In this document: positions 4,572 to 5,960 of the stretch, piece after piece
Position numbering within the stretch: the stretch's first letter is position 1
Layout: each line of letters begins with the position of its first letter
From: a candidate division WOR-3 bacterium
GTDB lineage: Bacteria; Hydrothermota; Tepidihabitantia; Tepidihabitantales; CAIPLT01
DNA length: 59,379 nt
Reading direction: 5' to 3'
Assembly (NCBI GenBank): GCA_026418155.1
Contig: JAOABV010000005.1
Span: forward strand, 1 to 59,379
The notes under the pieces: generated by a model
Seen by the model: only the letters and a program-made list of their open reading frames with translations
Told to the model about the DNA's origin: nothing
Database searches by the model: none
Translations under genes and position numbers: made by a program

Positions 4572-4655
4572 TTTTATTTTACCACAAAGTCCCAAAGGAA
4601 AATAAAGCATTCGCTCACCGCACTTCTTTATTTATGATAATTAGAAAGGATTCCT

Positions 4656-4844
4656 ATGAAATTTAAGTTAACCAAGACCCTAACTGATTGCAAAGCACGA
4701 CAAGGCAAAATATCTTTACCTAAAATACAGCGGTCTTTATTTAACGATGAAATTTGAGATTGCTAAGATACTTATGGATTGTAAAGCACGAATAGGTAAA
4801 ATGTCTTTACCTGAAAGTGTTGTCAAGCCAATCTTTATTTTCCT
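4656..4844 (+). repeat. Two tandem diverged copies (91 and 98 bp) of the tgt 5' coding end, each an intact 33-codon ORF
   Basis: ATGs at 4656 and 4747 versus the true ATG at 4845. Peptides MKFKLTKTLTDCKARQGKISLP and MKFEIAKILMDCKARIGKMSLP match the Tgt N-terminus [22 protein letters not shown]. Confidence 0.9.
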
Positions 4845-5960
4845 ATGAAATTTGAGATTACTAAGAGCCTAACTGATTGTAAAGCACGGCTGGGAAAATT
4901 ATCTTTGCCTCATGGTATTGTCAATACACCCATCTTTATGCCAGTTGGAACTCAAGGCACAGTTAAAACAATAACACCAAAAGAATTATGTGAACTGGGC
5001 GCAGAGATGATTGTCTGTAATACTTATCATCTTTATCTAAGACCCGGACATAAAATAATTGAATCTGCTGGCGGAATTTCTAAATTTATCAGTTGGCACA
5101 AACCAGTTTTAACTGATTCTGGCGGATTTCAAATCTATTCCTTGGCATCGTTATGTAAAATTACAGATGAAGGAGTCAAATTTCAATCCCACATCGACGG
5201 CTCATACCATTTCTTTACGCCTGAGTTAGTAATCGCAATTCAAGAAAGTTTTGGGTCAGATATTGCAATGTGTTTAGATGTCTGCCCACCATACCCGGTT
5301 TCTCAGGAAGTGGCTCAAGAAGCAATGCAGAAAACCTTAAATTGGGCAGAACGCAGTAAAAATACTAAAAAAGAAACAACTAATCTTTTCGGTATCATCC
5401 AAGGTGCAACCTATCCTGAATTAAGAAAAATCTCTGCTCAAGCAACGGTTGATTTAGGATTTGATGGCTATGCAATTGGCGGATTATGTTTAGGCGAACC
5501 ATCAGAAGTCACTTATGAAATGATTGATGTTGTCCGAGATTTTATCCCCCATAATTTTCCGTGCTATCTGATGGGCGCAGGTTATCCCGAAGATATTATT
5601 GAAGGAGTTAAACGAGGAGTGGATATATTTGACTGTGTCTTACCGACTCGTAATGGTCGAACTGGCACCGCATTTACCAGTCTGGGCAGAATTACCATCC
5701 GAAACGCCCAATATACTGCTGACTTTACGCCTCTTGACCCAGGCTGTGATTGTTATACCTGTAAAAACTTTACCCGGGCGTATCTCAGACATCTATTTAT
5801 CGCTGGCGAATATTTAGGTCCAAAACTTCTAACCCTACACAATCTAAGTTTCTTTCTTACCCTCATAAAAAATATCCGAAAACATATTGAACAAGAAGAT
5901 TTTCTAAGTTGGTCTCAGCAATTCCTTTCTCAATATTCCTCCCATAATAATAAAGATTAA
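4845..5960 (+). CDS. tgt: Queuine tRNA-ribosyltransferase
   Basis: Motifs [11 protein letters not shown] and LTDSGGFQ, plus the zinc site CDCYTC...H. Confidence 0.95.

What the first reader, a model, noticed from the sequence alone, without database searches (positions are those of the whole stretch)
4634..4860. The tgt gene is preceded by two intact decoy copies of its own first ~30 codons, chained by overlapping stop/start codons
ORF A (ATG 4656, the only one with a GAAAGGA RBS) ends at TGA 4755-4757, which overlaps the ATG of ORF B at 4747. ORF B ends at TGA 4846-4848, overlapping the tgt ATG 4845-4847 as ATGA. ATGA overlaps are classically linked to termination-reinitiation coupling. The duplicated copies replaced the native RBS in front of B and of tgt, so tgt expression may depend on translating A and then B. 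The three N-termini stay similar at the protein level: MKF.(L/I).K.L.DCKAR.GK.SLP.
Basis: partly seen in the sequence, partly recalled or inferred. Interest (0 to 1): 0.66.

Follow-up and report, generated by a model that had tools for sequence, protein, structure and literature searches.

The report
Tandem duplicated start of tgt gene
The first ~95 bases of the tRNA-modification gene tgt have been duplicated head-to-tail in this uncultured WOR-3 bacterium, leaving two short upstream reading frames that end on the next start codon. This looks like a tolerated by-product of local duplication, seen at several genes in this lineage, rather than an evolved control device.

Summary
Three head-to-tail copies of the tgt 5' end (ATGs at 4656, 4747 and 4845; periods 91 and 98 nt) give ORF A, ORF B and the true tgt gene. 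ORF B ends in an ATGA overlap with tgt. ORF A ends 8 nt past ORF B's ATG.

It is not an assembly artefact: an independent assembly of a sister lineage (L025) has one decoy with the same unit boundaries and the same ATGA overlap. Its closest relative (L001) has none and differs from L025 by exactly one unit.

The chaining is automatic. ATGAAATTTGA carries TGA in both other frames, so any copy whose length is not a multiple of 3 ends there.

Substitutions unique to a decoy are 11 non-synonymous to 1 synonymous, against 3 to 7 in the gene copies, so the peptides are not selected. tgt orthologues have no Shine-Dalgarno (SD) sequence, and 28 of 41 window genes lack one, so no "native RBS" was replaced.

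Start-spanning tandem duplications recur in this clade (ptsI, nucleotidyltransferase, tgt, a DUF721-like gene, and pgi in a relative) and are absent from controls.

Best reading: a tolerated local duplication, made harmless by incidental termination-reinitiation. Interest is moderate to low; the clade-wide recurrence is the more curious part.

The parts
3597..4571 (+). Upstream gene: sugar-phosphate nucleotidyltransferase. No terminator-like site lies between it and tgt.
   Evidence: Pfam NTP_transferase E = 8e-33. Terminator scan of 3200-5200 found 0 sites.
4572..4655 (+). Leader upstream of the first copy. GAAAGGA (an SD-like motif) is at 4644-4650. TCTTTATTTAT at 4624-4634 may be a vestige of an older unit junction.
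   Evidence: Sequence. The 11-mer matches the L025 unit end and junction (p about 0.016, uncorrected). The leader has no detectable similarity to the L001 or L025 leaders.
4656..4757 (+). ORF A, the decoy from copy A. Its homology to tgt codons 1-22 spans 4656-4721. A 10-nt deletion follows and the frame shifts. The stop TGA at 4755-4757 lies 8 nt past ORF B's ATG.
4741..4746 (+). A/B junction, TTAACG. It follows the unit end TCTTTAT (4734-4740).
4747..4848 (+). ORF B, the decoy from copy B. Its homology to tgt nt 1-95 spans 4747-4838, with a 3-nt deletion. The stop TGA at 4846-4848 overlaps the tgt ATG as ATGA.
4839..4844 (+). B/tgt junction, TTTCCT. It matches 5 of 6 bases with ATTCCT upstream of copy A, which marks the left boundary of the duplicated unit at about -6.
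4845..5960 (+). tgt, the tRNA-guanine(34) transglycosylase gene. The ATG at 4845 is the orthologous start. Copy C of the repeat is 4845-4939.
   Evidence: Pfam TGT E = 5e-155. It aligns to solved bacterial Tgt structures from residue 3 onto chain residue 4. Orthologues start MKFE/MQFE at the same place.
1..323 (+). Same kind of event at ptsI: a 60-nt unit repeated at least 5.4 times (94% identity). Each unit holds an SD, the first 25 nt of ptsI and a 13-codon mini-ORF. The true start is at 299.
   Evidence: It is absent in the L028 genome.
3449..3613 (+). Same kind of event at the nucleotidyltransferase gene: a 74-nt unit repeated 2.2 times (93-100% identity), holding the SD and the first 17 nt of the gene.
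   Evidence: A related decoy is present in L029 and L002. It is absent in L001.
16838..17010 (-). Same kind of event, older, at the DUF721-like gene downstream of recF (true start 16837). Units of about 50 nt carry ATGTCGAAACC... and an ATGTAA start-stop.

Best explanation
**Origin (inferred).** A 101-nt segment spanning -6 to +95 of tgt was duplicated in tandem, by slippage or unequal crossing-over, in an ancestor of the window and L025 lineages. It expanded to three copies in the window lineage, where indels shortened the periods to 91 and 98 nt. It contracted back to one copy in L001.

**Evolution of the copies (inferred).** The copies have exchanged sequence with the functional copy through gene conversion or unequal crossing-over. 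That is why they still look like the Tgt N-terminus. The decoy peptides themselves have no function.

**Consequence on the mRNA (inferred from geometry; not shown).**
1. Ribosomes load at the SD-equipped ORF A.
2. They terminate 8 nt past ORF B's AUG.
3. Ribosomes translating ORF B open the small hairpin around the tgt start and terminate on the UGA that overlaps the tgt AUG (-4 spacing).
4. tgt is therefore translated partly by reinitiating or unfolding-assisted ribosomes, and partly by the SD-independent initiation that is normal for this gene and organism.

**Why the chain exists (shown).** It is a passive consequence of ATGAAATTTGA holding TGA in both alternative frames. This is what makes a start-spanning duplication harmless. 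It is not an evolved regulatory relay.
For: **Structure and copy number**
- establish the three-copy structure.
- Copy number is 3 in the window, 2 in L025 and 1 in L001, with identical unit boundaries and similar 6-nt junctions: TTTCCT, TTAACG and TTATCT.
- Mismatches between L001 and L025 are 22% in nt 1-90 and 6-8% from nt 97 onward. The switch falls exactly at the repeat boundary, so these two genomes differ by one unit.
- tgt phylogeny places the window outside the L001/L025 pair: 0.835 versus 0.905 DNA identity.

**Sequence exchange between copies**
- All three window copies share CGA/CGG for Arg, whereas both L025 copies share AGA/AGG and TAAGGCAAG.
- Non-coding leader DNA of the window and L025 is unalignable, and whole-gene pS is 0.57. 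Yet decoys B and D are 76% identical.

**No selection on the peptides**
- Changes unique to a decoy are 11 non-synonymous to 1 synonymous, at codon positions 6/4/2. Gene copies show 3 to 7. Fisher p = 0.006.
- There is a frame-shifting 10-nt deletion in copy A.
- Open frames are expected by chance in 45-80% of decoys.

**SD usage and RNA**
- tgt orthologues have no SD, and 13 of 41 window genes have one.
- The tgt start is less accessible with decoys than without: local MFE is -6.3 in the window and -12.6 in L025, against -4.0 in L001.
- Literature: coupling is efficient at -4 spacing and needs short distances (PMC10666635; PMC12548453).

**Recurrence**
- The same kind of start-spanning duplication occurs at ptsI, the nucleotidyltransferase gene, the DUF721-like gene, and pgi in L028.
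- The units are local, not a dispersed family.
Against: - All three decoys known (A, B and the L025 decoy D) keep an ATG, an open frame and a stop on or next to the following start. B's only indel is a multiple of 3 and preserves the ATGA overlap. This is what selection for a relay would give, although it is also likely by chance (roughly 0.1-0.5).
- Pairwise dN/dS between decoys is low (0.14-0.30). D shows about half the non-synonymous changes expected under strict neutrality relative to L001. Gene conversion or recent decoy status explains this, but it is not proven.
- Four of the five arrays with long units (50 nt or more) in the window span a start codon, and none was seen to span a stop codon. 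Stop codons were not scanned systematically. Pure neutrality does not obviously predict this bias.
- No expression data exist for this uncultured organism.
Confidence: 0.6

Rival explanations
1. Selected translational relay. tgt has lost independent initiation and is expressed only through ORF A, then ORF B, then tgt by termination-reinitiation. Selection keeps the decoy frames, starts and stop positions intact, for example to set a low, fixed Tgt level.
For: - The ATGA overlap is kept in both the window and L025.
- All decoys are open and retain an ATG.
- B's indel is a multiple of 3.
- The tgt translation-initiation region is in a hairpin whose 5' arm lies inside the decoy ORF.
- In the window, an SD is present only at ORF A.
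Against: - The stops are automatic, because there is a TGA in both alternative frames of ATGAAATTTGA.
- L025's decoy has no SD either.
- L001 dispensed with the decoy.
- tgt orthologues never had an SD.
- The other start-spanning repeats in the window show no consistent coupling geometry: spacings are +18, -7 and +20.
- Openness is not statistically unusual.
Confidence: 0.2
2. Inert junk. The decoys are not translated to any useful extent, or lie outside the tgt transcript, and tgt is initiated directly on its AU/U-rich leader. The array has no effect on expression.
For: - SD-less initiation is the norm here: 28 of 41 genes lack an SD.
- The U-rich stretch UCUUUAUUUUCCU lies directly before the tgt AUG.
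- A weak promoter-like site sits inside copy A at 4697-4726.
- The leader fold is not significant, z = -1.15.
Against: - ORF A has a good SD at 5-nt spacing, identical to the SDs of other genes in the window (TAGAAAGGATTC), so it is very likely translated if it is transcribed.
- Promoter-like sites occur at the chance level.
- The tgt start is predicted to be less accessible than in L001.
Confidence: 0.13
3. Regulatory leader. The decoy ORFs sense something, for example decoding of queuosine-dependent NAY codons: AAC GAT lies right on ORF B's start at the end of ORF A, and TAT lies near the end of the L025 decoy. Alternatively, the repeated units are binding sites for an RNA- or DNA-binding regulator.
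For: Only circumstantial. Tgt modifies the tRNAs that read Asn, Asp, His and Tyr codons, and ORF A ends ...AAC GAT GAA ATT TGA across ORF B's ATG.
Against: - No conserved regulatory codons are shared by A, B and D.
- There is no Rfam family, no terminator and no significant or conserved structure.
- The decoy is absent from L001 and from all more distant relatives.
- Decoy-specific changes look neutral.
Confidence: 0.04
4. Assembly or scaffolding artefact.
For: One other apparent 'duplication' found in a relative (L005 6792-7001) is such an artefact: it flanks a run of N.
Against: - The copies differ by 22-26% and by indels.
- The same structure appears in an independent assembly from another sample.
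- There are no Ns in the region.
Confidence: 0.02

Closest known systems
Mycobacterial interspersed repetitive units (MIRUs)
   Same: Both are 46-101-bp units in tandem, lying between co-oriented genes. Each carries a small ORF that is coupled to the downstream gene's start codon with -4 spacing. The review PMC12548453 interprets this as letting the insertion occur with minimal effect on expression.
   Different: MIRUs are a dispersed, apparently mobile family with a shared consensus at many loci. Here, each unit is a copy of its own gene's 5' end and matches nothing else in the window. Only the B/tgt junction has the -4 spacing.
Termination-reinitiation coupling of overlapping gene pairs and uORF-gene pairs (ATGA / TGATG; for example the iraD uORF and IS91 orf121-tnpA)
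   Same: Both have a -4 ATGA overlap, a downstream start without an SD, and an upstream ORF that may serve only to deliver a ribosome (PMC12548453, PMC10666635, PMC6728339, PMC5574718).
   Different: Here the upstream ORFs are decaying copies of the downstream gene's own N-terminus, chained twice. Dependence has not been tested, and the overlap follows automatically from the sequence of the start.
Partial tandem gene duplications and minisatellite-like arrays formed by slippage or unequal crossing-over
   Same: Both have head-to-tail units with fixed boundaries. Copy number differs between close relatives (3, 2 and 1). There is concerted evolution, and a unit has been lost by recombination.
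   Different: The events are strikingly concentrated on translation start sites: at least 4 genes in this window. They are restricted to one WOR-3 sub-clade.
Leader peptides of attenuators (trpL, ermCL, mgtL and similar)
   Same: Both are short ORFs in the leader of the regulated gene.
   Different: There are no conserved peptide or regulatory codons, no alternative hairpins or terminator, and no conservation in relatives.

Membership tests
Termination-reinitiation coupled ORF pair | Stop and start codons overlap (-4 or -1) or are only a few nt apart, on the same strand | tested here: met
   B/tgt is ATGA at 4845-4848. A/B is an 11-nt overlap. L025's decoy/tgt junction is also ATGA.
Termination-reinitiation coupled ORF pair | Translation of the downstream ORF depends on translation of the upstream ORF | not testable with these tools
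   This needs reporter fusions or ribosome profiling. Only indirect hints exist: no SD at 4845, and a local hairpin of -6.3 kcal/mol against -4.0 in L001.
Termination-reinitiation coupled ORF pair | The overlap is conserved among relatives beyond what the sequence imposes | tested here: inconclusive
   It is kept in the window and in L025, but is automatic for any unit length that is not a multiple of 3. L001 lacks the uORF altogether.
MIRU-like intercistronic repeat | Tandem 40-100-bp units between co-oriented genes, with an internal ORF coupled to the downstream start | tested here: met
   Units of 91 and 98 nt lie between the nucleotidyltransferase gene and tgt, and ORF B is coupled at -4.
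MIRU-like intercistronic repeat | Dispersed family: the same unit consensus occurs at many loci | tested here: not met
   Each unit (tgt, ptsI, nucleotidyltransferase, DUF721-like) matches only its own locus in the 59-kb window. The tgt unit is homologous to tgt coding sequence.
Regulatory leader peptide / attenuator | Conserved peptide or regulatory codons | tested here: not met
   Decoy-specific changes are 11 non-synonymous to 1 synonymous. Copy A is frame-shifted. The decoy is absent in L001 and in more distant relatives.
Regulatory leader peptide / attenuator | Alternative RNA structures or a terminator in the leader | tested here: not met
   There are 0 terminator-like sites. Fold z-scores are -1.15 and -0.49. 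There is no Rfam hit.
Tandem segmental duplication (slippage / unequal crossing-over) | Head-to-tail copies with the same boundaries | tested here: met
   All units end in TCTTTAT, followed by a 6-nt junction and then ATG.
Tandem segmental duplication (slippage / unequal crossing-over) | Copy-number change between close relatives by whole units | tested here: met
   Copy numbers are 3, 2 and 1. Divergence between L001 and L025 switches exactly at nt 95.
Tandem segmental duplication (slippage / unequal crossing-over) | Microhomology at the original breakpoints | tested here: inconclusive
   Only 1-2 nt (AT or T) are shared between ...GGAT|TCCT and ...TTTAT|GCC. The junctions have since mutated.
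Diversity-generating retroelement (template / variable repeat) | Mismatches confined to adenines of one copy | tested here: not met
   C versus B mismatches by base are A 5/28, C 5/16, G 5/17 and T 4/31. The copies are also tandem and at a 5' end.

The most novel reading that the evidence does not exclude
In this WOR-3 sub-clade, tandem duplications that span a start codon are not just tolerated. They are a recurrent, selected way of building 'self-derived' ribosome-delivery uORF cassettes, functionally like MIRUs but made from each gene's own 5' end. These cassettes would set or rescue translation of genes in an organism that mostly lacks Shine-Dalgarno sequences. The tgt A-B-tgt chain would be one mature example.
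Probability: 0.12. Interest if true: 0.7.

Novelty: new variant of a known kind. Interest (0 to 1): 0.35.

Why it matters
For tgt alone it matters little. It is a clean natural example of how a duplication that spans a start codon can persist, because out-of-frame stops at the true start hand ribosomes on to the real gene.

The wider pattern is more interesting. About one gene in ten in this window, plus several genes in its closest relatives, carries such a start-spanning repeat. None is seen in more distant WOR-3 loci or in an E. coli control. None of the long-unit arrays seen spans a stop codon, though stops were not scanned.

If that bias is real, it points to one of two things:
- a lineage-specific mutational process focused on translation start regions, or
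- selection for uORF-mediated initiation in an SD-poor organism.

There is also a practical consequence for annotation. Gene callers can pick the wrong start or call spurious 30-aa 'genes' at such loci.

Tried and rejected
1. **Closer relatives.** The genome scan, the metagenome scan, the protein search and the cluster listing show that only the window, L001 and L025 exist at 92% identity or more. No further strains were found to test copy-number polymorphism.
2. **A fourth, degenerate copy upstream of A.** Only an 11-mer, TCTTTATTTAT at 4624-4634, matches (p about 0.016, uncorrected). This is noted but not claimed.
3. **Long-range helix 4593-4607 / 4833-4847** (14 of 15 bases complementary) that would mask the tgt start. 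It is present in the MFE and centroid structures. However, the fold z-score is -1.15, and L025 has no equivalent. It is treated as chance.
4. **Riboswitch or known RNA.** No Rfam hit was found in 1-8000 at E of 1 or less, apart from two chance hits elsewhere.
5. **Internal promoter or terminator.** Promoter-like sites are at the chance level and there are no terminators.
6. **Programmed frameshift fusing the copies.** There is no X XXY YYZ slippery site in the decoy frame near the junctions (read).
7. **Diversity-generating retroelement.** The mismatch spectrum is not adenine-specific.
8. **Pairwise dN/dS as evidence of peptide selection.** The values are low (0.14-0.30). They are confounded by differences inherited from, or converted from, the functional copy. 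Lineage-specific changes give the opposite picture.
9. **Antisense ORFs** (4628-4708 and 4737-4826 on the minus strand). They have TTG starts and are mirror images of the conserved coding block. They were dismissed.
10. **L005 6792-7001 'duplication'.** It is a scaffold-gap artefact.
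Full report
**1. What is in the sequence**

Between the stop of a sugar-phosphate nucleotidyltransferase gene (3597-4571) and the body of tgt lie three head-to-tail copies of the tgt 5' end.
- The coding-homologous parts are 4656-4740 (A), 4747-4838 (B) and 4845-4939 (C, the real gene).
- Each ends in TCTTTAT.
- A and B are each followed by a 6-nt junction, TTAACG and TTTCCT, before the next ATG.

Tandem Repeats Finder reports 4651-4910 with period 98, 2.7 copies and 73% matches. 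Blastn of each unit against the whole window finds only its sister copies (E from 1e-6 to 1e-13).
- ORF A (4656-4757) is preceded by GAAAGGA at 4644-4650. Its stop lies 8 nt beyond ORF B's ATG.
- ORF B (4747-4848) stops on the TGA of ATGA at the tgt start.
- Copy A carries a 10-nt deletion after codon 22 and is read in a shifted frame from there.
- Copy B carries a 3-nt deletion.

The ATG at 4845 is the true tgt start. The protein is a full-length Tgt (Pfam E = 5e-155). It aligns to solved bacterial Tgt structures from its third residue onto residue 4 of the chain.

**2. Organism and relatives**

tgt homologues place the window in candidate division WOR-3. Only two close relatives exist in the searched collections. 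Both have 92% Tgt identity to the window:
- the MAG behind L001/L028;
- a 1.3-kb Logan contig, L025.

tgt DNA identity is 0.905 between L001 and L025, and 0.835 between either of them and the window. The window is therefore the outgroup.

L025 carries one decoy. This is a 34-codon ORF (114-218), [34 protein letters not shown], whose TGA overlaps the tgt ATG as ATGA. Its period is 101 nt, and it has the same unit end (TCTTTAT) and a similar junction (TTATCT).

L001 has no decoy. None of the 83-85%, 79% or more distant relatives has one either.

L001 and L025 differ at 20 of the first 90 tgt nucleotides, but at only 6-8% from nt 97 onward. L001's 5' end is nearer to the L025 decoy (83%) than to the L025 gene copy (80%). 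The two genomes therefore differ by exactly one repeat unit.

The simplest history has three steps:
1. One 101-nt duplication (-6 to +95) occurred before the window and L025 lineages split.
2. The array expanded to three copies in the window.
3. One unit was lost by recombination in L001.

Recurrent duplication at a hotspot is not excluded.

**3. Are the decoys under selection?**

Neutral DNA has diverged beyond recognition between the two lineages. The leaders upstream of the first copy are 84% identical between L001 and L025, but unalignable between the window and either of them. Whole-gene synonymous difference is 0.57.

Yet decoy B and the L025 decoy are 76% identical, and pairwise dN/dS among decoys is 0.14-0.30. 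Taken at face value, that would suggest constraint. Two observations point to a different explanation.
- **Within-genome sharing.** All copies within a genome share genome-specific synonymous states. The three window copies have CGA/CGG for Arg. Both L025 copies have AGA/AGG and TAAGGCAAG. The copies have therefore exchanged sequence with the functional copy.
- **Decoy-specific changes look neutral.** Changes found only in a decoy are 11 non-synonymous to 1 synonymous, at codon positions 6/4/2. The two gene copies show 3 to 7. Fisher p = 0.006.

The decoy branches therefore evolve without regard to the peptide.

Keeping an open frame is not unusual either. After 5-20 random substitutions, 44-80% of simulated copies of the window's gene copy are still open (34-73% for L025's).

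Some residual signal remains. All three known decoys keep an ATG, an open frame and the stop position. B's indel is a multiple of 3. The L025 decoy has about half the non-synonymous changes expected under strict neutrality. I cannot exclude weak selection to keep the frames open.

**4. Why the ORFs are 'chained'**

The tgt start ATGAAATTTGA (MKFE, the usual Tgt N-terminus) contains TGA in both alternative frames: A-TGA and TT-TGA.
- Any upstream copy whose length is not a multiple of 3 must therefore stop on or just after the next ATG.
- Lengths of 101 and 98 nt (2 mod 3) give ATGA.
- A length of 91 nt (1 mod 3) gives the TTTGA stop.

The chain is a property of the sequence, not evidence of design.

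**5. Translation**

The idea that the copies displaced a native ribosome-binding site is not supported.
- tgt in L001, L025, L002, L003 and L005 has no SD.
- Only 13 of 41 window genes have a recognisable SD.
- The L025 decoy has no SD either.

In the window, ORF A does have a good SD, identical in context (TAGAAAGGATTC) to that of another gene. It is probably well translated.

The junction creates a small hairpin, with AAUCU of the unit end pairing with AGAUU of the next copy. This makes the tgt start somewhat less accessible than in L001:

| Start site | P(unpaired) | Local MFE (kcal/mol) |
|---|---|---|
| Window tgt | 0.29 | -6.3 |
| L025 tgt | 0.30 | -12.6 |
| L001 tgt | 0.40 | -4.0 |

(All values.)

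Published work shows that coupling is efficient at -4 spacing, falls off within about 20 nt, and can work by reinitiation and/or RNA unfolding (PMC10666635; PMC12548453). It is therefore reasonable, but unproven, that ribosomes finishing ORF B contribute to tgt initiation, alongside direct SD-independent initiation.

There is no terminator, no above-chance promoter, no Rfam family and no significant or conserved leader structure.

**6. The same thing happens at neighbouring genes**

Within the window:
- The window opens inside a 60-nt array of at least 5.4 copies (94% identity). Each unit is the SD plus the first 25 nt of ptsI, with a 13-codon mini-ORF.
- The nucleotidyltransferase gene is preceded by 2.2 copies of a 74-nt unit carrying its SD and first 17 nt.
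- The DUF721-like gene after recF (minus strand, start 16837) is preceded by older units of about 50 nt.

In relatives:
- pgi has a 5' decoy in L028.
- The nucleotidyltransferase gene has one in L029 and L002.

A scan for upstream copies of the first 24 nt of each candidate start (at least 19 of 24 matching) gave these results:

| Sequence set | ORFs with an upstream copy |
|---|---|
| Window | 3 of 45 |
| Closest relatives | 3 of 23 |
| More distant WOR-3 and other loci | 0 of 168 |
| 50 kb of E. coli K-12 | 0 of 81 |

Fisher p = 8e-5 for the close clade against the rest. Reversed-sequence and within-gene controls gave 0 of 295.

Each unit matches only its own locus, so these are not a dispersed element. 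Stop-to-start spacings differ between loci (+18, -7, +20, -4). This argues against a common coupling design.

Four of the five arrays with long units (50 nt or more) in the window span a start codon, one lies between convergent genes (16096-16396), and none was seen to span a stop codon, though stops were not scanned systematically. That bias is unexplained.

**7. Comparison with known systems**

- **MIRUs** are the nearest analogue in architecture. They are tandem intercistronic units of 46-101 bp, and their internal ORF is coupled at -4 to the downstream start. This is thought to minimise the cost of insertion (PMC12548453). MIRUs, however, are a dispersed family, and that defining feature is not met here.
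- **Termination-reinitiation** is the nearest analogue in mechanism. The geometric criterion is met, but dependence could not be tested.
- **Origin.** The array behaves like an ordinary partial tandem duplication with concerted evolution and unit-wise gain and loss.
- **Rejected on tested features:** attenuator-type leader peptides, DGRs, riboswitches and programmed frameshifting.

**8. Verdict**

This is a real feature and the description was largely correct. Its most likely nature is a tolerated start-spanning tandem duplication. Its uORF chain is an automatic by-product that probably helps, but was not built, to deliver ribosomes to tgt (confidence about 0.6).

The selected-relay reading remains possible (about 0.2). 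The clade-specific recurrence of start-spanning duplications is the part most worth following up.

Noticed in passing
window 1-323 (+): A 60-nt tandem array of at least 5.4 copies (94-98% identity) sits at the start of ptsI (true ATG at 299). Each unit holds an SD (GTGAGGAAAG), an ATG and a 13-codon mini-ORF, MSKKELLLLSKSS*. The window begins inside the array, so the copy number is a minimum. The array is absent from the relative L028, where ptsI follows the HPr gene directly.
   Followed up: partly
window 3449-3613 (+); L029 1065-1192; L002 1053-1492: A 74-nt tandem repeat (2.2 copies) carries the SD and first 17 nt of the nucleotidyltransferase gene. L029 and L002 carry a decoy, ATGTTAAAAGTAATTATT, at 107 and 423 nt upstream of their true starts. 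L001 has none. Whether this is one ancestral event or several was not tested.
   Followed up: partly
window 16838-17010 (-): Older repeats of about 50 nt span the start of the DUF721-like gene downstream of recF. They include the decoy ATGTCGAAACCAATAAAATCAAAAGAATGA and an ATGTAA start-stop.
   Followed up: partly
window 16096-16396: A 96-nt tandem array (3.1 copies, 77% identity) lies between two convergent genes. It is the only long-unit (50 nt or more) array in the window that does not span a start codon. Its nature is unknown.
   Followed up: no
window 3075-3128 (+): A perfect in-frame 27-nt duplication lies inside the pgi/SIS gene (KSKVKNIKI KSKVKNIKF). The L001 orthologue has a single copy of this stretch.
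   Followed up: partly
L028 4801-4990: In the L001 genome, pgi has its own 5' decoy: ATGTTGAAAGAAATGTTTAGGCTAATCTATAC..., 131 nt upstream of the true start. This genome lacks the tgt and nucleotidyltransferase decoys.
   Followed up: partly
L001 3001-3095: L001's single tgt 5' end is of the 'decoy type'. It encodes two unusual residues at otherwise conserved N-terminal positions: G4 instead of E, and T14 instead of A. This is consistent with a former decoy having become the working N-terminus after loss of a unit.
   Followed up: partly
window 4593-4607 and 4833-4847: A 15-nt inverted repeat (14 of 15 complementary) pairs the far leader with the 12 nt before the tgt AUG. It appears in both the MFE and centroid folds. 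It is not statistically supported and is not conserved in L025.
   Followed up: yes
window 7609-7679 and 29069-29124: GC-rich 11-12-nt tandem repeats (GAAGGGTATGCC, TGCCCCCCGGCT, GGCAAGCCAGGG, GGCATACCCCCC) occur at two distant places in an otherwise 35% GC window. They may be parts of a dispersed element.
   Followed up: no
L002 2450-3000, L029 2146-2570; L002 4907-5175: The 83-85% lineage has an insertion of about 0.5 kb or more (about 550 nt in L002) between the nucleotidyltransferase gene and tgt. It also has a 31-nt direct repeat just upstream of tgt (L002 2879-2909 and 2945-2975), and a perfect 124-nt repeat of 2.2 copies downstream.
   Followed up: no
L005 6792-7001: An apparent 55-nt perfect duplication at a gene start flanks a run of N. 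It is a scaffolding artefact, and a caution for automated scans for this kind of repeat.
   Followed up: yes
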